Positions 10,785 through 38,556 of a stretch of DNA of 40,901 nucleotides are shown piece by piece. The notes below the pieces were generated by a model. The model saw only the letters and a list, made by a program, of their open reading frames with translations, was not told the origin of the DNA and made no database searches. Both the position numbers and the translations under genes were made by a program. The DNA comes from a virus. Location: UHGV virus genome UHGV-1629914. One strand, written 5' to 3'. Within the stretch, counting starts at the first letter, position 1; each line of letters starts with the position of its first letter.

Positions 10785-13700
10785 TCAAAAGCCTCGATTC
10801 ATCAGTTCATCAGCAAGTCGTTCAAGTTCAGTAGCAGCTTTTTGTCGCTTGGCTTCTCTTTCTGCTTCAACATCTGCTTTGCTTACTGGTGATTCCAAGT
10901 CTTTTGCAGGTGCATCTTCAATAACAGTCAAATTGCTGTCATCAAACTTGTTGTCAATGTCAACTCGTTTGAATGATATGATGCCTGATGACACCTGAGC
11001 TTCTGCTTGTTGTTTGTCAAATACAAGACTACTAATCGTTGATTGCAGTTTTGCAGATGCCAGCAATCGTTCTGTGTTATCTGCAAAAATGTCATCAGTA
11101 AACAATACATGCAGCATTTGAGCAATCGAATCACGACTTCTGCTGTAGCCACTGTCAAATGCAGGCAACTGCTTAATTGCATAGATGTCGCCATCATGTA
11201 CAGTAATTGCATTGAACATGCGCCTTGCAATTGATGCAACCGAATCAAGTACGTCTGGTGATTGTGGTGTGTAGCCTCGTGAATCAAAGTATATGAGTGC
11301 AGAGTTCTTAACAATTTGGTCGACAACTTCTGATGCAATTGAAACTGCATCTTTGCTATTGTTGAAGACATCATTCAGCATATATGACACAATCTTGATG
11401 TTTGATTCATGCATTGTGCCACTTGAGCCCGCATCAAATATTGACACTGCGTCTTTGATTGATTTGAGTCTTGCAAGTCGATACATGTCTTTGTTGTCAA
11501 TGACATACATATCGATAGTCTTCATGATTGTGTCAAACAAGTAATGATGTGACAATGTTCGCAATGCATGTCGCCAATCATCAAATACTCGTCTGTCTTC
11601 TACAAGATATGTAAGCTTGCCATTTTTCTTGACAAGTTCAAATCTGTCTGATTCTTGAACTTGCTCTGCTGGCAAATTCATGATGACTTCGAATGTGGCT
11701 TGATTGACAAATGATGCAAACATTTTGCCAATCTTGCTGTTCTTTTCTTGACGGTACTCTGCTCGAGCTTCTTTTGCTGCATTGAGAACTTGAGCAATCA
11801 TCATGTCATCTGCAACAACATCTTGTACGACTTTGCATTCATAGCCATATGATGACAACGTGTTTTGAATGATGACAAGCTGAGTAGCCCATTGTCGCCA
11901 TTTCTGCTCAAACATATTGAGCTTGTATGCAGTCAAGTGAATCTTGATTTCACCTGTGTACGGGTCACGATAGAAATACGGTGCATTGAATGCCCATTCA
12001 AAGAAATCAAAGAGACTTCTTGAGTCATTGCGCTTTGTCTGCATTTGCAAAATGTCCCAGAATGACAGCTTTTCAACATTTGTCAATGTCAAGTCAAGCT
12101 CATCATATGCAGTAATGTTTCGTGGGTCGCCATTCGATTTTGTCATACTGAAATACACATATGACTGAATGGATATTTTGCGAAGCCGTGAGTTAAATTG
12201 TTCGATTTCTTGACCTGTAAATGCCTCGTCATAAATGACATCGAATTCGTAGCTGTCATTGATATCAATGCCAACTGACAAGTAATTTGTGCAAAACAGC
12301 AGTTCAATATCACCGATTGTACCAGATTCATTGATTGATTGAACAAAGTCATGCATTGCATTATCACGCTTGTAATACTTGACTTTCGGATTTCTGCCAA
12401 GCATCATTCGAACTGCGCCTACAATTGCATGAGTAAATGCATCGCCTTTGTTTGTTGGGAACAGAATTCGTTTGCCTGCTTTAATTGCTGTTGAGATATG
12501 TGATGCAAGTTTTGTAATCTTGTCGCCGTCATGTTTGCAGCAGACAAATCTGACACCTTTGTTGTAATTAAGCGGCTTGTCGCAGAATATGACAGTGTCA
12601 AAATGACAGAACATGTGTTCAGCTACAGGTGTGCCTGTCATCAAAATGACTTTTGTCTGCAACTTTGTTAAGTTGTCAATTACATTTGCAGGCACAACAT
12701 CACGATATGCAGACATTGTCAACAAGTGTGACTCGTCGACGACAACGTAGTCATATAAAATTGATACTTCCTCTGGGTCAGCTAATGTAAACTTATCGAA
12801 TGTCAAAGCTACATTGACATGCTTAGACAATTCAAGACCGCGCTGACCAAATGAGCAATACATGCCAAGGTCTGACATCTCAATCTTTGATTGCAAGATT
12901 GATGTGTATGGTTCAATCAGCATGACTCGTTTTCCATCACGAGTAAGCTGTTTGATGAATTCTGTCTTGCCTGAGCCTGGCCGTGCAATCAAGTAATTGA
13001 TGCCAGTTACAAATGCTTCTTCAAGTTCATGCTTGTATGTTGACAAGTATTCATTTTCTGCAAGTTTGAAGACATGCGTATGTCGAAGTTCAAAGTCTTT
13101 TTGCTGTGCAACTTTCGACATAATGTACTGGCTGATTGCATCTTCTGTGTTGTGTTCAGCAATCAGTTCATTGACAGTTACAGATGACTTGTTAGCAAAC
13201 TTGAATTTGAAGCCATGCTTTTCACGAAGTTCTTTGACAGATGACCACACACATGGACAAGTACCTGCAGCATTACGTTCAACTGCAGACCTGAATGAGT
13301 TTGCCCAGCTGTTATGCTCTGCATTGAACTTTGGGTTGCCTGAACACATTTGCAAGAACATTTGCAACACATGTTCATATTGACCACCTGTAGTTGACTT
13401 CAAATCATATAAAAATGCTAAAGTATATGCAAGTCTGTATCTACCAGTGTTATCGTAGTTTTGTGGAGTGATTGTGAGCATTGTGCCCTCTTCAATCATT
13501 GTGATGTCGTCACGTTGAGTAAAGACTTGCTCGCCGTCAGTCATTGCAGTCATATGAGACTTCGGTGCATAATCAAAACGACCACGAAGTCTATCAAACA
13601 TTGTCTTCAGTTTGTCGATGCAGAATTTTGCATCAACTGAAGCATAGATGCTAACATCAAACTCTGGTTGCTCAATGAATTGCGCGTTTTGATTGATGAT

Positions 13701-21525: not shown

Positions 21526-21866
21526 AGCTGACCTGTTGCCAGGTGAAAGCGTGGTGCAGCACCTTGTGCTGCAATGGCTATGCTGCCATCGCCATAACGG
21601 GCTGAGCATTGCCCAGCATCATTACACGACCAGCTGCGTTAAGCATACGCTTTGCTTTGTTGAAAAATTTGCCAGTTATTGGCTATACACATCTGTTCGT
21701 ACACGTTCATAAGCCGTCAAATACCTGTCACCCCCAATGCTTGGACAGTTGTCAGTCAGTTGTCCAGCTGACTGCAGTCTTTCTGAGTGTATCAAGTTCA
21801 GCGATTCTGCATCTAAAATGGCAATGGTTCAAAATGTGGAGGTGCCGCCATCGAAGGCGGGTCCGT
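21526..21866 (-). ncRNA. candidate circularly permuted (two-piece) tmRNA, ssrA-like
   Basis: (1) T-arm-like hairpin CCGCC-TTCGAT-GGCGG followed by CACCTCC plus A at 21860-21837. (2) About 100 nt downstream, GGGGGTG (21735-21729) pairs with CACCTCC over 7/7 positions with G3-U70 and discriminator A. (3) GGGGGUGACAGGUAUUUGACGGC resembles the conserved tmRNA 5' region. (4) A short frame ends ...GNAQPVMAMAA-UAG, followed by a hairpin. (5) About 48% GC locally. (6) Terminator at 21492-21525. Confidence 0.45.
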
Positions 21867-21876
21867 GCAAACTACG

Positions 21877-22707
21877 TTACGACTTCTTGCTTTCGCAACT
21901 TGTCGACATGTATGGGTTTATATTGTGAGTATTACAAAAATCTTTATACCATGCAATAAAGTCTGCAATTTGCTGTTTACATAAGTGCTTAAATTTATGC
22001 GCATCCCAATATTGAATACGATACACAGTGTAACCTATCGATGACATAAATATATCGCGCTTAGTATCTCGTTCAATGTGTTCTGGATATCTATGCTGTT
22101 TGCCGTCAATTTCAAGGTCTACATTGCCAGGCAATCTAAAATCAAGAAAATATACGCCATGTGCAGACGAATCATAATCTCGCTTATTTATACGATATTG
22201 AAACTCATATGCAATATGCTCAATGTCAAGTACACCTTTCCAATATGATTCTGCAAATGTTATAGTATTTCTTGCAGCCCACGGCTTATTTCGGCCATCC
22301 TCAAAAGATTTACGAACTTTATCACCTATCTTTTTACGAGTATTTTCTGAATGTCGTATATTATGACCAGCAGCAAACCATTTGTTATTGGCTTTATAAG
22401 TTTCATCGGCAAATAATTGTTTCATTCTATTTGACTGACGCTTACGTGCTGCAGAAGACCATTTGCCTTTGCCACCCTTACTTTCCTGATATTGACGTTT
22501 TTGTTCTGCACGTGTAGGCACTTTATGCGCACGTGCTAACTTATTATGTTTAGAACGTCCAGCAGCAACAAATGCTGCGTTCATTCTTTTACGTGTCTCA
22601 GGATGTTTTTTGTGATAATTGTTTTGCAACATTTGAATGTGCACACCAATTGCAACAAAATCTACCGCTGCCATATGTGCCATCATGTTCTTTTCCACAA
22701 TTTTCAC
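21877..22707 (-). CDS. freestanding homing-endonuclease-like protein (NUMOD3-like motifs plus C-terminal Vsr/DUF559-like PD-(D/E)xK-type domain)
   Basis: 276 aa with HPETRKRM and HSENTRKKIGDK (NUMOD3-like) and C-terminal VDLEIDGKQH ... GYTVYRIQYW resembling the Vsr/DUF559 core; sits between the tRNA cluster and the tmRNA candidate. Confidence 0.55.
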   Translation of the reverse strand: MKIVEKNMMAHMAAVDFVAIGVHIQMLQNNYHKKHPETRKRMNAAFVAAGRSKHNKLARAHKVPTRAEQKRQYQESKGGKGKWSSAARKRQSNRMKQLFADETYKANNKWFAAGHNIRHSENTRKKIGDKVRKSFEDGRNKPWAARNTITFAESYWKGVLDIEHIAYEFQYRINKRDYDSSAHGVYFLDFRLPGNVDLEIDGKQHRYPEHIERDTKRDIFMSSIGYTVYRIQYWDAHKFKHLCKQQIADFIAWYKDFCNTHNINPYMSTSCESKKS

Positions 22708-22735
22708 AAATATGCATAAGATATTAAAAGTTTTT

Positions 22736-22811
22736 GCAGCGCACCGAGATTCGAACTCGGACTCCCACCACTACAGTGGTACTCTACCGTTAAGCTACAC
22801 GTCTTTACAAG
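22736..22811 (-). other. tRNA-like element: clear T-arm plus 3' acceptor strand, 5' half does not fold canonically
   Basis: CCGAG-TTCGAAT-CTCGG then TGCGCTG-C at 22760-22736; no complementary 5' acceptor strand or cloverleaf found by hand upstream. Confidence 0.25.
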
Positions 22812-22889: not shown

Positions 22890-22973
22890 AGCCAGTGGTC
22901 AGATTCGAACTGACGTGAGGCAATGCCTACCGGGTTACAAATCCGGTGGAGTCGACCGCTGTCCCACACTGGC
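22890..22973 (-). tRNA. class II (long variable arm) tRNA, anticodon ambiguous: loop UUUGUAA gives UGU by canonical register
   Basis: Perfect 7-bp acceptor GCCAGTG/CACTGGC, D-arm GGA-CAGCGGTCGAC-TCC, anticodon stem CCGGA/CCCGG (one A-C mismatch), variable arm AGGC-ATT-GCCT, T-arm GTCAG-TTCGAAT-CTGAC; 84 nt, no encoded CCA. Confidence 0.6.
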
Positions 22974-23044: not shown

Positions 23045-23116
23045 ACCACGACTTGTAGCCGAACTTGGAGTCGAACCAAGCTTTCGAGAATGAAAATCTC
23101 GCGTCCTAACCGATAG
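23045..23116 (-). tRNA. tRNA-Glu (anticodon UUC)
   Basis: D-arm GTCT-ATCGGTTA-GGAC, anticodon arm CGAGA-TTTTCAT-TCTCG, T-arm CTTGG-TTCGACT-CCAAG; acceptor GGCCGTT/TTCGGCT has two U-U mismatches. Confidence 0.6.
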
Positions 23117-23314
23117 ACGAAACGGCCAAGAGCAGTTCAAGTCTGCAGCATTGAACTGCGGAAGCAATGCCTGTACGGGCAGCAAATTGTGCAGATACAG
23201 CGACATTGCAAAATCACACCGAACCAAGTTTGTGCTTTCGAATATCAATTTGTATTGACCGCAGTCATTATACTTGGCACCAATGACTACTGATGTAAAA
23301 ATCGGTGTGTTACG

Positions 23315-23399
23315 CGGAGAGTAAGGGATTCGAACCCCTGGTACGTTGCCGTACAGTGGTTTTCAAGACCACCGCCATCGACCGCTCGGCCAACTCTCC
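23315..23399 (-). tRNA. tRNA-Ser (anticodon UGA), class II
   Basis: Perfect acceptor GGAGAGT/ACTCTCC, D-loop GAGCGGTCGAT, anticodon arm GTGGT-CTTGAAA-ACCAC, variable arm GTACG-GCAA-CGTAC, T-loop TTCGAAT. Confidence 0.8.
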
Positions 23400-23592
23400 G
23401 TAAAACATTGCATAAGCATTCTTATCTCTTGATGAGACCAAGTAGCTAATTTGGCAAGTTTGTTATATCTATCGTGACTGCTGCAGTTTGTTTGTCACTC
23501 AATACACAAAACTTTCGAACATTCATTGACAGCACTGCAATATCGCTTTTTAAGCTCAGCCATCAATGTATTTATGCAATGTATAACAATTC

Positions 23593-23674
23593 GTAGCCAA
23601 ACCGGGACTTGAACCCAGACTCCTAATGGAACAACATTTTGAGTGTTGCGTGTCTACCAATTCCACCATTTGGC
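23593..23674 (-). tRNA. tRNA-Leu (anticodon CAA), class II
   Basis: Acceptor GGCCAAA/TTTGGCT, anticodon arm CAACA-CTCAAAA-TGTTG, long variable arm, T-arm CTGGG-TTCAAGT-CCCGG. Confidence 0.8.
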
Positions 23675-23778
23675 CATTTGCAAATGCAAGCTGTTTCACA
23701 ACTGTTTGCATTTGCTGTCGTAAATTCGTATTGTTTAACTTCTAAAACAGAATTCATCTAATTAAAACCAGAGAATTG

Positions 23779-23851
23779 TAGGGAAGACCGGACTCGAACC
23801 GACGACCACTTGCTCCCAAAGCAAGCATGCTACCAACTGCACCACTTCCCT
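23779..23851 (-). tRNA. tRNA-Pro (anticodon UGG)
   Basis: Perfect acceptor AGGGAAG/CTTCCCT, D-loop AGTTGGTA, anticodon arm CTTGC-TTTGGGA-GCAAG, T-loop TTCGAGT. Confidence 0.8.
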
Positions 23852-23857
23852 AAATTG

Positions 23858-23929
23858 TTGAGACGGCAGAATTCGAATCTGCATTACAGGAACCAAAATC
23901 CTGGGTCTTAACCATTGGACGACGTCTCA
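23858..23929 (-). tRNA. tRNA-Gln (anticodon UUG)
   Basis: Perfect acceptor TGAGACG/CGTCTCA, anticodon arm CAGGA-TTTTGGT-TCCTG, T-arm GCAGA-TTCGAAT-TCTGC. Confidence 0.75.
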
Positions 23930-35265: not shown

Positions 35266-38200
35266 TCAGTTACATGCTGAATGTCCACAGTTGGTGCATC
35301 GAACACAGCCATCAAACTTGACCATATCACCACCACATTCAGGGCACTTTGCATACATTTTTGAGCCATCTTGAATATGCAGTTTCAATGCACGACCAAT
35401 TGCTTTGCAGAATGTTCCGACAGATGCAAAGCTTTTTGCAGTTTGGTCGACAATTTCGCCGAGGTCAATACCATTGCGAAGCATCGTTGAGTACAGTCGA
35501 GTAATTGTCTGCTGCTCATCTGAACCAAGACGTTCTGAGATATTGTCATAGTGCTGCAAGAATGACAAATTATCACTAAGCTTGTAGTGTTTCTTATCAG
35601 TCTTTGTGATTGTCGTTTGTTCAATGCCTTGCAACTTGTCGAATTCATCTTTGTCAAGTTCAAATGCAAAGATTTCATAAGGTCGACCGTCATCACAGCC
35701 TACAAGAATACACCACTTGCGCTTATACACTGACACGCAATACACTGCAGCAGGCAATACTGGTTTTCGTTTTGAGCGATGACCAGATTGCAAGATGTGC
35801 GACTTGTCTTTTGACTGCTTGTCATCTTTTACGAGAACACCTGCACGTGAGCCGTCTCGATAAATTGTGCAGCCCTTGCAGCCAGATTTCCATGCAGTCA
35901 TATAAATTTCACGAACGAGTTCTTTTGTTGCAGAGTTTGGAATGTTGACCGTTACAGAAATTGACGAGTCAATGTATTTTTGCAATGCACCTTGCAGTTT
36001 CACCTTGCCAATCCAGTCAACATCTTCAGTAGTTGCCTTGTAGTATGGTGATTGAACAAGCAACTCATCAATGACTGCTTGCGGAGCATTTGATAACCAA
36101 GCTTTGATGCGAGACATTTCTGCTTCTGACCATTCAATGCCAGTATCTTTGACAAGAGTAAATTTGCCATCGCCAAGCTGCACTCGTTTACAAATCCACT
36201 GCATCAATGGATAATGAACTACAGCATATTCAATGAACTTATCGCCAGTAGTCTCATCAATGAAGTTGATGTCAGCTTCATTATCAACTGCAGTAGGCTT
36301 TCGACGACGTTTGTGCAGTGGCATAAAGACGGGCTCAATACCAGACGTCGTCTGAGTCATCAAAGCTGTAGTGCCTGTTGGCGCAATTGTGGTCGTGTTG
36401 ATGTTTCGACGACCAAATTGCTGATAAGTTTTGATGTGCTCATCATCAATCAGTTCAGATAGCATACGCTGGACGAACTTTGACTGCACATCTGTGTCAT
36501 AGTCAAATATTGCAAATGAGCCGCGAATCTTTGCCAAGTCAATTGATGCTTCATAAGTAGCCTTTACAAGCCATTGCTGCATAGTGACTGCGAAGTCAAT
36601 TGACTCTTGTGAACCATAGCGTAAGCCAAGCATCGCCATTGCATCGCCAAGTGCAAGGAAGCCCATACCATATCGACGAGTATTTGTCAGTTTGTCATAG
36701 ACTTTGTGCCACAAGTCAAGTTCAGTCTTTTTGATGTCAAAGTCTTCTTTGTCTGACCGTACCTTTGCAATGATTCGTTGCACTGCTTCAATTTCAAGCT
36801 GTACAAGGTCATCCATGATGACTGCGCAATCATACGTGTCTTTATAGAATGTCTCAAAGTCAAATGACGCATCAGCAGTCCAAGGATTAAGCACGTATGC
36901 AGTCAAATTGCGATGTGACAAAATGCAGCTTGCATATGCTGCAAGAGGTTGTTCACCACAATTTAATGTATTGACGACTTGCTTGTCATTGACTGCAATA
37001 AAGAAATTGTGGAAGTCTTCTACTGTACCATTGTACACATCTGCTTTGTTCATGTGACGTGTTGCGACAACTTTGACAATTGCATCACCAGTAGTGTCAA
37101 TGTCTGCATATTTGCTGTAGTCACCTAACGCTGCGCAAGCATCACAGCAATACGCTTGTTCACGATTGTCATAAGAAACTTCGAATTCTTTACCACAATA
37201 TTCGCATCGTTTAATGACTGTGTTTCGTTCTGTTTTTACAAGTTCGTCAGTCTTCAATGCAATTGATAGCTTATCTGTGCTTGGCATATCAATTGCCCAC
37301 AATGAGTCATTTGTTGCAAGGTCAATTGCATACTTGAAATCGCCATTAGCAAGTCTAAACTCATGATTTGCTGTACAATTGATGACATGACCATCATCAA
37401 GCACAATCTGAATGATTTGTGCATTGTGTGCAGTCAATCTTGGTCGACGCATTGTACGCACAACAAGCTTGCCATTAGCGTCAAGACAATACACTGGAAT
37501 GTCTTCGCCGTTATCAGCAAGCTCTTTGAATGTCTTCAAACCTGAGCCATCAGCAACAAGCACTTTTGTATCACCTGTGAAGCATGGATTTGTTGAGCGC
37601 TCTTCATACATTTTGCCATATGCTTTCGAGTTCGACTCTTCCATAATGCGGTCCCAGAAGAACACACCAGGTTCTGCAGATGCCCATACATTATCAACAA
37701 TTTTGTCGAACAATGCTTTTGCATCTGATGTCTTATGCAGCTCTTGGCCATCAGAGCCACGCCAAACATGCTCAAACTGTTGTTCTGCAAGTACTGCACG
37801 CATAAATGCATCAGTAAGCTTGATAGAAATGTTTGCGCCTGTGATTTTCGTCAAGTCTTTTTTTGCGTCAATGAACTTATCTGCGTCAGGATGCTCAATT
37901 GACAATGACAACATCAATGCACCACGCCTGCCATTTTGTGCAACTTCTTTTGTTGATGTTGAAAAGCGTTCCATAAATGACACTACACCAGAAGTTGTAA
38001 CAGCACTGTTATGCACTTCTACGCCTTCTGGGCGAATATGTGACAAATCATGGCCAACACCACCACGACGCTTCATCAACTGAACTTGCTCTTCATCTGT
38101 TTTGAAGATGCCGCCATATGAGTCTGCATCATTGCCTATTACGTAGCAATTTGACATTGATGTGTAACCGCCAAGACCAATACCAGCCATTGGAGAACCA

Positions 38201-38487
38201 CCAAGTACAAATCGCTTAAATGGCTCAAGCAAATATGCAAGTCGCTCTTTTGACAATACACGTTTGCCTGTCTGTTCTTCAAATTGTGATTCTATACGGT
38301 CAAATTCATTGACCCAGCGTTCATGCATGTCAGACAATGAGTGTTCATACAGATTGTCTTTGTCGTGATGCAAGTATTTTGACATGCATATGTCAGCAGC
38401 CATTGAATCACCTGTAAATTCATGTGTCAGTGCAGTATGCACTTCGGCATATTCAGGCGACCCAATTTGAATGGGATGTTTTGTCAT
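35266..38487 (-). CDS. ribonucleotide reductase catalytic subunit (class II-like NPCGEQ site) interrupted by an intein
   Basis: NPC / GEQPL active-site motif split by an inserted block; C-terminal Cys cluster CPECGG ... CVRCTNCGHSAC. Start taken at the internal ATG (MTKHPIQ), about 45 nt downstream of a class A motif. Confidence 0.75.
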   Translation of the reverse strand: MTKHPIQIGSPEYAEVHTALTHEFTGDSMAADICMSKYLHHDKDNLYEHSLSDMHERWVNEFDRIESQFEEQTGKRVLSKERLAYLLEPFKRFVLGGSPMAGIGLGGYTSMSNCYVIGNDADSYGGIFKTDEEQVQLMKRRGGVGHDLSHIRPEGVEVHNSAVTTSGVVSFMERFSTSTKEVAQNGRRGALMLSLSIEHPDADKFIDAKKDLTKITGANISIKLTDAFMRAVLAEQQFEHVWRGSDGQELHKTSDAKALFDKIVDNVWASAEPGVFFWDRIMEESNSKAYGKMYEERSTNPCFTGDTKVLVADGSGLKTFKELADNGEDIPVYCLDANGKLVVRTMRRPRLTAHNAQIIQIVLDDGHVINCTANHEFRLANGDFKYAIDLATNDSLWAIDMPSTDKLSIALKTDELVKTERNTVIKRCEYCGKEFEVSYDNREQAYCCDACAALGDYSKYADIDTTGDAIVKVVATRHMNKADVYNGTVEDFHNFFIAVNDKQVVNTLNCGEQPLAAYASCILSHRNLTAYVLNPWTADASFDFETFYKDTYDCAVIMDDLVQLEIEAVQRIIAKVRSDKEDFDIKKTELDLWHKVYDKLTNTRRYGMGFLALGDAMAMLGLRYGSQESIDFAVTMQQWLVKATYEASIDLAKIRGSFAIFDYDTDVQSKFVQRMLSELIDDEHIKTYQQFGRRNINTTTIAPTGTTALMTQTTSGIEPVFMPLHKRRRKPTAVDNEADINFIDETTGDKFIEYAVVHYPLMQWICKRVQLGDGKFTLVKDTGIEWSEAEMSRIKAWLSNAPQAVIDELLVQSPYYKATTEDVDWIGKVKLQGALQKYIDSSISVTVNIPNSATKELVREIYMTAWKSGCKGCTIYRDGSRAGVLVKDDKQSKDKSHILQSGHRSKRKPVLPAAVYCVSVYKRKWCILVGCDDGRPYEIFAFELDKDEFDKLQGIEQTTITKTDKKHYKLSDNLSFLQHYDNISERLGSDEQQTITRLYSTMLRNGIDLGEIVDQTAKSFASVGTFCKAIGRALKLHIQDGSKMYAKCPECGGDMVKFDGCVRCTNCGHSACN
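36961..37584 (-). mobile_element. intein (about 208 aa) within the ribonucleotide reductase
   Basis: Begins CFTGDTKVLV (intein block A) right after ...STNP; ends VEDFHNFFIAVNDKQVVNTLN with terminal Asn followed by extein Cys (CGEQPL). Carries a CEYCGKEF ... CCDAC zinc-ribbon-like insert; no LAGLIDADG or HNH block seen. Confidence 0.6.
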
Positions 38488-38528
38488 TGTAACAGTGCAT
38501 TTAAGTGTTTTAACTGTTTTATGTATAA

Positions 38529-38556
38529 ATTGTACAACAATGCGCAAAATTTTGCA
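38529..38556 (-). promoter_or_regulatory. class A promoter-like motif
   Basis: Coding strand reads TGCAAAATTTTGCGCATTGTTGTACAAT, upstream of the reductase ATG. Confidence 0.5.

What the first reader, a model, noticed from the sequence alone, without database searches (positions are those of the whole stretch)
22890..22973. Class II tRNA whose anticodon loop reads UUUGUAA (UGU, a threonine anticodon, on a long-variable-arm scaffold)
The gene folds as a type II tRNA (84 nt, perfect acceptor stem, AGCGG-type D-loop, 4-bp variable-arm hairpin), yet the 7-nt anticodon loop in canonical register gives UGU. Long variable arms are expected only for Leu, Ser and Tyr. The loop contains GUA one position off register, and the closing pair 31-39 is an A-C mismatch. 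It could be a diverged Tyr tRNA, a decoding-altered tRNA or a pseudogene.
Basis: seen in the sequence. Interest (0 to 1): 0.5.

Follow-up and report, generated by a model that had tools for sequence, protein, structure and literature searches.

The report
Threonine tRNA with a long variable arm
This phage gene is an intact threonine tRNA (anticodon UGU) built on the long-armed "class II" shape that textbooks reserve for leucine, serine and tyrosine tRNAs, and it belongs to a large, conserved and apparently undescribed family found in many phages and several bacterial phyla.

Summary
Window 22890-22973 (minus strand) encodes an 84-nt tRNA (Rfam 48.4 bits) with a perfect acceptor stem, a 3-bp D stem, a 15-nt variable arm with a 4-bp hairpin, loop UUUGUAA (anticodon UGU) and an A31·C39 mismatch.

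It is not a one-off, a shifted tRNA-Tyr or a pseudogene. The same design occurs in at least 117 viral, 107 genomic and 40 metagenomic loci, giving 160 distinct sequences. About 97% have G1-C72/C2-G71 and 96% have U73. That is the signature of ordinary tRNA-Thr in the same loci, not of Tyr, Ser or Leu. UUUGUAA is the majority loop, and the A·C mismatch recurs in the closest relatives.

Two sister phages (89-96% DNA identity) carry an ordinary 74-nt tRNA-Thr(UGU) in exactly this slot. In the window a 1.14-kb cassette, which also holds a nuclease-like ORF, replaces it.

ACA is the phage's main Thr codon, and 11 of 15 conserved ACA columns are Thr in homologues.

Best reading: a Thr-accepting ACA decoder. 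Charging was not tested, the role of the long arm is unknown, and I found no paper describing such tRNAs.

The parts
22890..22973 (-). Class II-shaped tRNA-Thr(UGU), 84 nt including discriminator U73; no encoded CCA
   Evidence: ARAGORN; Rfam tRNA 48.4 bits; 52.5 bits against a profile of 159 family members
22937..22939 (-). Anticodon UGU (positions 34-36) inside loop UUUGUAA
   Evidence: this loop is found in 100 of 160 family members and in the class I orthologue of L291
22915..22929 (-). 15-nt variable arm: U, then AGGC-AUU-GCCU hairpin, then CAC (1 unpaired + 4 bp + 3 unpaired)
   Evidence: sequence; the hairpin is kept in the centroid fold; the same layout occurs in 114 of 160 members against about 5 expected from shuffles
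23055..23929 (-). Rest of the tRNA array: Gln(UUG) 23857-23929, Pro(UGG) 23778-23851, Leu(CAA) 23593-23675, Ser(UGA) 23314-23399, Glu(UUC) 23055-23127
   Evidence: 89-91% identical to the arrays of L291/L292; each anticodon matches the phage's preferred codon
21832..22969 (-). Window-specific 1138-bp segment. In sister phages a 313-bp segment with class I tRNA-Thr(UGU) and tRNA-Gly(UCC) occupies this place
   Evidence: blastn break points against L291/L292; tRNA calls in L291/L292
22737..22804 (-). Degenerate tRNA-like element with a 5-nt anticodon loop and an imperfect acceptor stem; sits where relatives have tRNA-Gly(UCC)
   Evidence: Rfam 31.5 bits, just above threshold; not called by ARAGORN; compared with L291 by eye
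21877..22717 (-). Nuclease-like ORF inside the cassette: N-terminal zinc ribbon (ATG at 22717) plus DUF559 nuclease-type domain, split by a frameshift at an A6 run near 22606-22611
   Evidence: Pfam DUF559 E 8.6e-5; translations in two frames; the N-terminal DNA matches Lak-A2 Prevotella phage and tRNA-array locus L268

Best explanation
The gene encodes a functional tRNA-Thr(UGU) that has a class II architecture: a 3-bp D stem, an enlarged D loop and a hairpin variable arm.

Inferred mechanism. It is transcribed with the phage's tRNA array and receives CCA from the host CCA-adding enzyme. The host threonyl-tRNA synthetase (ThrRS) charges it with threonine through the usual bacterial Thr identity set (G1-C72, C2-G71, G35, U36, with the U73 typical of tRNA-Thr in these organisms). 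It then decodes ACA, the phage's most used Thr codon, and probably ACG by wobble.

Shown: it belongs to a large conserved family of such tRNAs in phages and in the chromosomes of several bacterial phyla. In this phage lineage it replaced an ordinary class I tRNA-Thr(UGU) at the same array position, as part of a 1.14-kb cassette that also carries a nuclease-like (possibly homing-endonuclease) ORF.

Not explained: the long arm itself. It may be inherited from a class II ancestor and simply tolerated by ThrRS, or it may be selected for another reason.
For: Structure. Full cloverleaf. In 63 diverse members, 18 of 20 consensus pairs keep pairing through double changes.

Family. At least 117 viral, 107 genomic and 40 metagenomic loci, giving 160 distinct sequences.

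Identity.
- G1-C72/C2-G71 in 159 of 164 and U73 in 158 of 164.
- Class I tRNA-Thr of the same loci: GC/GC in 48 of 53 and U73 in 49 of 53.
- Tyr is GG + A73, Ser is GG + G73, Leu is A73.
- According to review PMC9976931, Thr identity lies in the acceptor stem plus the anticodon, A73 is critical for Tyr and Leu, and C2-G71 in E. coli tRNA-Leu is an antideterminant against the seryl-tRNA synthetase, SerRS.

Natural swap. L291 and L292 are 89-96% identical in flanking DNA and have a 74-nt class I tRNA-Thr(UGU) with the same loop, the same GCC...GGC-U ends and the same leader, in the same slot.

Codons.
- ACA is 56% of Thr codons, and every tRNA in the array matches a preferred codon.
- In 50 ACA columns of RNR and topoisomerase alignments, Thr is the top residue (0.37).
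- Conserved ACA columns: 11 Thr, 2 Asn, 1 Ala, 1 Lys, and no Ser, Tyr or Leu.

Cellular copies. An identical sequence occurs in 29 Spirosoma-type loci among housekeeping genes. In about 30 Eremiobacterota loci the gene sits beside the Tyr-Gly(UCC)-Thr(GGU) cluster.

Public records. Cultured phages (Sinorhizobium phiM12 group, Pseudomonas HPP-Temi) annotate it as tRNA-Thr.

The 'odd' traits are family traits. U32 in 100 of 160; A31·C39 in 10 of 160, including the nearest relatives L253 and L279.
Against: - No aminoacylation or expression data exist for any member.
- ThrRS is a class II synthetase. From my own knowledge of class II complexes it approaches the tRNA from the variable-loop side, so a long arm could interfere. 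This was not tested.
- Some phage arrays hold both a class I and a class II tRNA(UGU) (9 viral and 8 metagenomic loci), which could hint at different roles.
- I could not scan whole bacterial genomes, so I do not know whether the class II gene is the only UGU tRNA in Spirosoma or Eremiobacterota.
- The codon test shows what ACA means in evolution. It does not show what this particular tRNA carries.
Confidence: 0.8

Rival explanations
1. The long arm is adaptive and the tRNA has a specialised role. For example, it may resist or decoy host tRNA-targeting defences (anticodon nucleases, acceptor-end-modifying toxins), or be a handle for a phage or host factor, while still decoding ACA as Thr.
For: - Phage tRNAs are known to evade tRNA-targeting immunity through sequence changes (PMC10264068, PMC11555353, PMC11464382).
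- The toxSAS toxin FaRel2 selects tRNA-Gly and tRNA-Thr through the acceptor stem (abstract of PMC11245113).
- About 10% (66 of 641) of distinct tRNAs of normally class I isotypes in the phage loci have long variable arms.
- Class I and class II UGU tRNAs coexist in some arrays.
- The class II gene arrived on a mobile cassette.
Against: - The same architecture is a conserved chromosomal gene in several bacterial phyla, where evading phage defence makes no sense.
- None of the defence papers I checked mentions variable arms.
- There is no direct evidence of any kind.
Confidence: 0.15
2. It is a mis-incorporating tRNA. SerRS, which reads the long variable arm and ignores the anticodon, charges it with serine, so ACA is partly read as Ser.
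For: [quoted passage not shown]
- The D loop AGCGGUCGA is identical to that of the neighbouring phage tRNA-Ser.
- Among the canonical class II surrogate profiles (Ser, Tyr, Leu), Ser scores highest (20 bits).
Against: - U73 instead of G73, and C2-G71 instead of the G2-C71 that is conserved in bacterial tRNA-Ser. C2-G71 is listed as an anti-SerRS determinant.
- The variable arm has 3 unpaired bases on its 3' side and a short 3-4-bp stem, whereas Ser in the same loci has 1.
- No conserved ACA column is Ser.
- It is interchangeable with a class I tRNA-Thr in sister phages.
Confidence: 0.04
3. It is a decaying or inactive gene copy: a pseudogene carried along with the cassette.
For: - A31·C39 and C13·C22 mismatches, and no encoded CCA.
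- Its cassette neighbours look damaged: a degenerate tRNA-like element and a frameshifted ORF.
- The single-sequence MFE fold is not a cloverleaf (z = -1.56).
Against: - All four stems are otherwise perfect, and the tertiary-pair positions U8, A14, G15:C48, G18G19 and T loop UUCGAAU are intact.
- The mismatches are conserved subfamily traits.
- None of the array's tRNAs encodes CCA.
- It scores 48.4 bits on Rfam and 52.5 bits full-length on the family profile.
- If it were dead, this phage would lack the tRNA-Thr(UGU) its sisters keep.
Confidence: 0.05
4. It is a tRNA-Tyr whose anticodon GUA is read one position out of register from an enlarged 8- or 9-nt loop.
For: - GUA is present at positions 35-37.
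- The A31·C39 mismatch could open the loop.
- The variable-arm layout (1 + stem + 3) matches tRNA-Tyr.
Against: - A73 and U35, the critical Tyr determinants (PMC9976931), are absent.
- Most family members have a closed 5-bp stem.
- The Tyr surrogate profile gives 7 bits.
- Normal tRNA-Tyr genes sit next to family members in 78 loci.
Confidence: 0.01

Closest known systems
Canonical class I bacterial or phage tRNA-Thr(UGU) (for example the orthologous gene in sister phage L291 at 12807-12880; E. coli thrU from my own knowledge)
   Same: Anticodon loop UUUGUAA or CUUGUAA, G1-C72, C2-G71, U73, a 7/5 acceptor/T branch, the same slot and leader in the array, and the same presumed job of reading ACA as Thr.
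   Different: - A 15-nt hairpin variable arm instead of 4-5 nt.
- A 3-bp D stem with a 13·22 mismatch and an enlarged D loop (20a, 20b) instead of a 4-bp stem.
- Only 12 bits against a class I Thr profile, and only over the 3' half.
Bacterial class II tRNAs: tRNA-Tyr(GUA), tRNA-Ser, tRNA-Leu
   Same: - Overall class II shape.
- Variable-arm layout like Tyr (1 unpaired, stem, 3 unpaired).
- D loop like Ser in this subfamily.
- Some phage tRNA-Tyr genes have a nearly identical D arm (L105, L118).
   Different: - The anticodon is UGU.
- The discriminator is U73, not A73 (Tyr, Leu) or G73 (Ser).
- C2-G71 rather than G2-C71.
- Weak scores against the Tyr, Ser and Leu profiles (7, 20 and 5 bits).
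allo-tRNAs and other irregular long-armed tRNAs (Mukai et al. 2017, PMC5389517)
   Same: Long variable arm combined with anticodons that are not Leu, Ser or Tyr; found in bacteria and phages by metagenome mining.
   Different: - Those tRNAs have 8/4 or 9/3 acceptor/T branches and mostly Ser (or Ala, His, Cys) identity, and they act as missense or nonsense suppressors.
- This family has a standard 7/5 branch and the identity elements that match its own anticodon.
- That paper does not mention UGU tRNAs.
Yeast mitochondrial tRNA-Thr(UAG) derived from tRNA-His (reviewed in PMC7609411)
   Same: A precedent for a Thr-accepting tRNA built on the body of a different tRNA type.
   Different: That case reassigns CUN codons and has an 8-nt loop. 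Here the codon meaning is standard and the loop is canonical.
Phage T4 SegB homing endonuclease in the tRNA gene region (own knowledge, not checked here)
   Same: An endonuclease gene embedded in a phage tRNA cluster that promotes inheritance of the neighbouring tRNA genes. This is a plausible model for the cassette swap seen here.
   Different: - SegB is a GIY-YIG enzyme, whereas the ORF here is a zinc ribbon plus a DUF559 (PD-(D/E)xK-like) domain.
- The ORF here appears frameshifted.
- Homing has not been shown.

Membership tests
tRNA (Rfam RF00005) | Cloverleaf that scores above the family's gathering threshold | tested here: met
   48.4 bits against a threshold of 29, model positions 1-71 all matched; also called by ARAGORN
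tRNA-Thr (substrate of bacterial ThrRS) | Anticodon bases G35 and U36 | tested here: met
   Anticodon UGU in a canonical 7-nt loop with U33 and A37
tRNA-Thr (substrate of bacterial ThrRS) | Acceptor-stem pairs G1-C72 and C2-G71, and the discriminator used by local tRNA-Thr | tested here: met
   The window gene has GCC...GGC-U73. The family has GC/GC in 159 of 164 and U73 in 158 of 164. Class I Thr of the same loci has 48 of 53 and 49 of 53. The identity rules come from PMC9976931 and from my own knowledge of the E. coli and T. thermophilus studies.
tRNA-Thr (substrate of bacterial ThrRS) | Is actually aminoacylated with threonine | not testable with these tools
   Needs in vitro charging or charged-tRNA sequencing
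tRNA-Thr (canonical architecture) | Class I body: 4-5-nt variable loop and 4-bp D stem | tested here: not met
   15-nt variable arm with a 4-bp hairpin, and a 3-bp D stem with C13·C22
Bacterial tRNA-Tyr | Anticodon GUA (U35) and discriminator A73 | tested here: not met
   Position 35 is G and the discriminator is U. Tyr in comparable loci has A73 in 45 of 49. The Tyr surrogate profile gives 7 bits.
Bacterial tRNA-Tyr | Long variable arm with about 3 unpaired bases on its 3' side | tested here: met
   U-AGGC-AUU-GCCU-CAC. The Tyr genes of the loci are mostly (1,3), as is this family.
Bacterial tRNA-Ser | G73, G1-C72/G2-C71, and a long variable arm with about 1 unpaired 3' base | tested here: not met
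   U73, C2-G71 and 3 unpaired bases. Only the D loop is Ser-like.
Bacterial tRNA-Leu | Discriminator A73 (crucial for LeuRS) | tested here: not met
   U73; the Leu surrogate profile gives 5 bits
allo-tRNA (Mukai et al. 2017) | 8/4 or 9/3 acceptor/T-stem configuration | tested here: not met
   Standard 7-bp acceptor stem and 5-bp T stem
Class II-shaped tRNA-Thr(UGU) family (defined here) | G1C2...U73 ends, 3-bp D stem with a 13·22 mismatch, D loop AGYGGUCGA, loop YUUGUAA, variable arm of 1 + 3-4 bp + 3-4 unpaired ending in C48, T loop UUCGAAU | tested here: met
   All features are present. 52.5 bits full-length against a profile of 159 other members.

The most novel reading that the evidence does not exclude
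tRNA-Thr(UGU) is a fourth, so far unrecognised class II tRNA type in bacteria and phages. It would be the housekeeping ACA decoder in lineages such as Spirosoma and Eremiobacterota and would move between phage tRNA arrays on mobile cassettes. It would be the most visible case of a wider habit of phage arrays, which put long variable arms on normally class I isotypes (Asn, Cys, Pro, Ile, Lys, Gly and others). In this reading the arm is selected for a function, such as resistance to tRNA-targeting immunity or altered processing or recognition, rather than being a neutral relic.
Probability: 0.3. Interest if true: 0.8.

Novelty: new variant of a known kind. Interest (0 to 1): 0.55.

Why it matters
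Textbooks and the 2023 tRNA identity review (PMC9976931) state that long variable arms belong to Leu, Ser and Tyr tRNAs (plus Sec), and the arm is treated as part of what tells the synthetases apart. A conserved, widespread Thr tRNA with that arm raises three points.
- ThrRS must tolerate or use a class II body.
- SerRS, TyrRS and LeuRS must be kept off it by other elements (U73, C2-G71).
- tRNA bodies can be re-assigned between amino acids in nature without changing the code.

The sister-phage swap of class I for class II in the same slot is a ready-made natural experiment. Cultured systems exist for testing (Sinorhizobium phage phiM12, Pseudomonas phage HPP-Temi, Spirosoma isolates). Such tRNAs could also interest people who design orthogonal tRNAs. 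For this particular window the practical message is simpler: the gene is a normal working part of the phage's codon-matched tRNA set, not an anomaly.

Tried and rejected
- blastn of the tRNA array against annotated phages. There was no close relative of this tRNA. A family consensus query did find cultured phages.
- Relatives found through the topoisomerase subunit (55-59% identity; L243-L248). They are syntenic but have no tRNAs in that region. The 97% and 79% relatives lie on contigs too short to reach the array. A neighbouring 291-aa protein finally gave the informative sister phages.
- A recurring TTGCA(A/T) motif upstream of the tRNAs. It is common throughout the window (306 sites against about 259 expected), so it is not a tRNA-specific signal.
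- Ancestry from the D arm alone. The nearest neighbours are split between tRNA-Gly (class I), Ser and Tyr, and the profile scores favour Ser weakly. The variable-arm layout favours Tyr. Origin is unresolved.
- RNAalifold on the MAFFT alignment does not call the variable-arm helix, because arms of different length are not aligned in register. I used a register-aware count with a shuffle control instead. The subset used for the per-pair counts was selected for pairing, so only the shuffle comparison (146 observed against 42 expected, and 114 against 5) carries weight.
- Nine literature searches and five papers read. None describes a long-armed tRNA-Thr. The library lacks most subscription journals, so absence is not proof.
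- Whether Spirosoma or Eremiobacterota also have a class I tRNA-Thr(UGU).

Full report
**1. The observation.**

Window 22890-22973 encodes a tRNA on the minus strand. ARAGORN calls tRNA-Thr(tgt). Rfam's tRNA model matches end to end at 48.4 bits, against a gathering score of 29. Read from the sequence it is: GCCAGUG UG GGAC AGCGGUCGA CUCC A CCGGA UUUGUAA CCCGG U-AGGC-AUU-GCCU-CAC GUCAG UUCGAAU CUGAC CACUGGC U.

- a perfect acceptor stem;
- D loop AGCGGUCGA;
- a 4-bp variable-arm hairpin;
- UGU in canonical register;
- an A31·C39 mismatch.

Three further features are worth recording. C13·C22 leaves a 3-bp D stem, which is the class II style. The discriminator is U73. No CCA is encoded, and the same holds for the five other tRNAs of the array.

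**2. Context.**

The gene is the sixth of a minus-strand array: Gln(UUG), Pro(UGG), Leu(CAA), Ser(UGA), Glu(UUC), Thr(UGU). A seventh, degenerate tRNA-like element follows at 22737-22804.

The window is a replication and nucleotide-metabolism block of a large phage. It holds two topoisomerase II subunits, an NAD-dependent ligase, and a class II ribonucleotide reductase with an intein-like insert. It reads well in the standard code. The nearest cellular homologues of the reductase are from Bacteroidota, and the closest tRNA relatives come from rumen-like metagenomes.

Every tRNA in the array matches a preferred codon of the phage: CAA 69%, CCA 49%, TTG 33%, TCA 47%, GAA 72%, ACA 56%.

**3. It is a member of a big family.**

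An exact-match search with the T arm found a different 130-kb phage contig (L001) that shares only 29 bp with the window. It has the same acceptor stem, T arm, CAC junction and U73-CCA. Its anticodon arm is fully canonical (CUCGC CUUGUAA GCGAG). Its variable-arm hairpin is made of different bases.

A narrower pattern found 40 metagenome contigs. ARAGORN confirms class II-shaped tRNA(UGU) genes in 117 viral, 107 genomic and 40 metagenomic loci, giving 160 distinct sequences.

The cellular carriers include:
- Spirosoma, with an identical sequence in 29 loci among ordinary cellular genes;
- Eremiobacterota/Vulcanimicrobiota, with about 30 loci where the gene lies beside a Tyr-Gly(UCC)-Thr(GGU) cluster on the opposite strand;
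- Kiritimatiellia, Verrucomicrobiota and others.

Cultured phages have it too, annotated simply as tRNA-Thr: Sinorhizobium phiM12, phiM7, phiM19 and phiN3, and Pseudomonas HPP-Temi.

**4. Which amino acid?**

The ends of the molecule answer this best.

| tRNA group in these loci | Pairs 1-72 / 2-71 | Discriminator |
|---|---|---|
| Class II tRNA(UGU), 164 distinct | G-C / C-G in 159 | U73 in 158 |
| Class I tRNA-Thr (GGU, CGU, UGU), 53 | G-C / C-G in 48 | U73 in 49 |
| tRNA-Tyr, 49 | mostly G-C / G-C | A73 in 45 |
| tRNA-Ser | mostly G-C / G-C | mostly G73 |
| tRNA-Leu | mixed | A73 |

According to the identity review PMC9976931:
- Thr identity rests on acceptor-stem pairs plus the anticodon;
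- A73 is critical for Tyr and Leu;
- bacterial tRNA-Ser conserves G1-C72 and G2-C71, and G73 contributes;
- C2-G71 in E. coli tRNA-Leu is an antideterminant against SerRS.

The window gene therefore carries the Thr set and lacks a key determinant of each class II synthetase.

tRNAscan-SE was not available, so I built surrogate isotype profiles from the tRNAs of the fetched loci. The window gene scores:
- 52.5 bits (full length) on the family;
- 20 on Ser (partial);
- 12 on class I Thr (3' half only);
- 7 on Tyr;
- 5 on Leu.

**5. A natural swap.**

Two IMG/VR contigs of about 175 kb (L291, L292) are sister phages. Their DNA is 89-96% identical to the window on both sides of the array. Their arrays read Gln, Pro, Leu, (Ser), Glu, Thr(UGU), Gly(UCC). 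Their Thr(UGU) is an ordinary 74-nt class I tRNA scoring 66-67 bits on Rfam.

Homology with the window runs through the shared leader (…ggttgcaatggcccaacgactttat) and the first four bases (GCCA) of the tRNA. It stops at window 22970 and resumes at 21831. So 1138 bp in the window correspond to 313 bp in the relatives.
- The window segment holds the class II tRNA-Thr, the degenerate tRNA-like element and a 276-aa ORF.
- The relatives' segment holds the class I tRNA-Thr, tRNA-Gly(UCC) and an 83-nt remnant.

The class I orthologue has the same loop UUUGUAA, the same GCC…GGC-U ends and no CCA. Two tRNAs with the same anticodon and the same identity elements occupying the same slot in near-identical genomes is the strongest evidence here that they do the same job.

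The ORF in the cassette is a zinc ribbon plus a DUF559 nuclease-type domain. It is split by a frameshift at an A6 run. DNA similar to its N-terminus occurs in Lak-A2 Prevotella phage and in another tRNA-array locus. A homing-endonuclease-driven allele replacement is a reasonable inference. From my own knowledge, T4 SegB does this in the T4 tRNA region. It is not shown here.

**6. What ACA means.**

I aligned the phage reductase with 26 diverse homologues, mostly cellular, and the topoisomerase subunit with 58 homologues. This gave 50 ACA codons in well-occupied columns.
- Thr is the commonest residue in homologues at those columns (0.37). This compares with 0.28 for ACT, 0.41 for TCA/Ser and 0.36 for TAT/Tyr.
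- Of the 15 ACA columns that are at least 80% conserved, 11 are Thr, 2 Asn, 1 Ala and 1 Lys. None is Ser, Tyr or Leu (first pass).

Inserting anything but Thr at ACA would therefore damage conserved sites.

**7. The 'defects' are family traits.**

- Loop UUUGUAA is the majority form (100 of 160), with CUUGUAA in the rest.
- The 31-39 pair is A-U 74, U-A 33, C-G 21, U-G 13, A·C 10, U·U 6 and C·C 3.
- The A·C form with U32 (GGAUUUGUAACCC) recurs in several lineages and in the nearest relatives L253 and L279, which are about 80% identical.
- The 13·22 position is a mismatch in most members, and C·C is typical of the GGGAC subfamily.
- U8, A14, G15:C48 and the T loop are conserved in 155-159 of 160.
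- In 63 diverse members, 18 of the 20 consensus pairs keep pairing through double substitutions.

**8. The variable arm is real and has a specific geometry.**

- 146 of 160 members have a hairpin of at least 3 bp in the variable region, against about 42 expected from shuffled arms.
- 114 have the layout '1 unpaired, 3-4 bp, small loop, 3-4 unpaired', against about 5 expected.
- 61 different stem sequences are used.

The 3' junction is usually CAC. That layout matches tRNA-Tyr of the same loci (1,3). It does not match Ser (1,1) or Leu (0,1 or 1,2). Some phage tRNA-Tyr genes also have a nearly identical D arm.

Other evidence points elsewhere. The D arm also resembles tRNA-Gly, and this subfamily's D loop is Ser-like. 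Descent from tRNA-Tyr by a one-base slip (CUGUAAA to CUUGUAA) plus acceptor remodelling is attractive but unproven.

**9. A wider pattern (seen in passing).**

My pattern demanded UGU. Even so, neighbouring genes in the same phage arrays include long-armed versions of Asn, Cys, Pro, Ile, Lys, Met, His, Gln, Trp, Gly, Val and Glu tRNAs, each with its own isotype's discriminator. That is 66 of 641 distinct tRNAs of normally class I isotypes. Some Gly(UCC) genes share the exact D arm of the Thr family. HPP-Temi has an annotated 88-nt tRNA-Phe.

**10. Literature.**

Nine full-text searches and five papers read turned up no description of a long-armed tRNA-Thr.
- The 2023 identity review names only Leu, Ser and Tyr as class II.
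- Mukai et al. 2017 describe long-armed irregular tRNAs, but with 8/4 or 9/3 branches and mostly Ser identity.
- The defence-evasion papers discuss anticodon-loop changes only.

The library lacks most subscription journals, and public records already label these genes tRNA-Thr. I therefore rate this as a new variant of a known kind rather than something categorically new.

**11. Verdict.**

Shown:
- the gene is intact;
- it is a member of a large conserved family;
- it carries Thr-type identity elements;
- it sits where sister phages have a normal tRNA-Thr(UGU);
- it serves a codon that means Thr.

Inferred:
- charging by host ThrRS and decoding of ACA (confidence about 0.8);
- arrival by endonuclease-associated cassette exchange.

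Unknown:
- why the arm is there;
- how ThrRS accommodates it;
- whether it is the sole UGU tRNA in the bacteria that carry it.

Noticed in passing
window 22737-22804 (-): Degenerate tRNA-like element (Rfam 31.5 bits, 5-nt anticodon loop GUAGU, imperfect acceptor stem; not called by ARAGORN). It lies where sister phages have tRNA-Gly(UCC). Its D arm resembles that Gly gene, and its T arm resembles an 83-nt remnant in L291 (13088-13104).
   Followed up: partly
window 21877-22717 (-): The ORF next to the tRNA is a zinc ribbon (MHICENCGKEHDGTYGSGRFCCNWCAHSN...) plus a DUF559 nuclease-type domain, in two frames joined at an A6 run near 22606-22611. This could be a broken gene, a homopolymer assembly error or slippage. 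The N-terminal DNA is 87-91% identical to a stretch of Lak-A2 Prevotella phage and of tRNA-array locus L268.
   Followed up: partly
L001-L120 (e.g. L001 6110-6198; L051, L102 Gly(UCC)); L242 1594-1681: Phage tRNA arrays contain many long-armed versions of normally class I isotypes (Asn, Cys, Pro, Ile, Lys, Met, His, Gln, Trp, Gly, Val, Glu, Phe), 66 of 641 distinct genes. Each keeps its own discriminator base, and some share the D arm of the Thr(UGU) family.
   Followed up: partly
L252, L254, L258, L265, L274, L276, L278, L279, L283, L284: Rumen-type jumbo-phage contigs (100-470 kb) with arrays of up to about 30 tRNAs include CUA-anticodon tRNAs, which ARAGORN labels 'Pyl'. These are probably amber suppressors, as expected for stop-codon-recoded phages.
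   Followed up: no
window 35266-38547 (-): The class II (B12-type) ribonucleotide reductase carries an intein-like insert (Pfam Intein_splicing 29.6 bits, below its cut-off). Many homologues carry inteins with HNH domains, and the closest intein-free homologues are from Alistipes and Rikenellaceae.
   Followed up: no
L243-L248: Relatives at 55-59% topoisomerase identity are syntenic from the large to the small topoisomerase subunit but have no tRNA genes there. The whole tRNA array is therefore an insertion specific to the lineage of the window, L291 and L292.
   Followed up: yes
L291 12970-13040 and 13032-13474: The sister phage's tRNA-Gly(UCC) appears to have G at position 33 (loop CGUCCAA), where U is almost universal. 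ARAGORN also reports a 'tmRNA*' overlapping it, which looks like a false positive.
   Followed up: no
L124 and about 30 other Eremiobacterota loci: The class II tRNA-Thr(UGU) lies about 100 nt from tRNA-Tyr and is transcribed divergently from a Tyr-Gly(UCC)-Thr(GGU) cluster. The position recalls thrU in the E. coli thrU-tyrU-glyT-thrT operon (own knowledge), but the strand is opposite.
   Followed up: partly
L145, L223: Two genomic tRNA(UGU) genes have a tRNA-Ser-like body (GGAGG...CCUCC, G73, 5-bp variable-arm stem). They are candidates for genuine Ser-charged ACA readers and are unlike the main family.
   Followed up: no
L241 1586-1659 (Sinorhizobium phage phiM12): The gene next to the long-armed tRNA-Thr is annotated 'tRNA-OTHER' in RefSeq, so it is another irregular tRNA in the same small cluster.
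   Followed up: no
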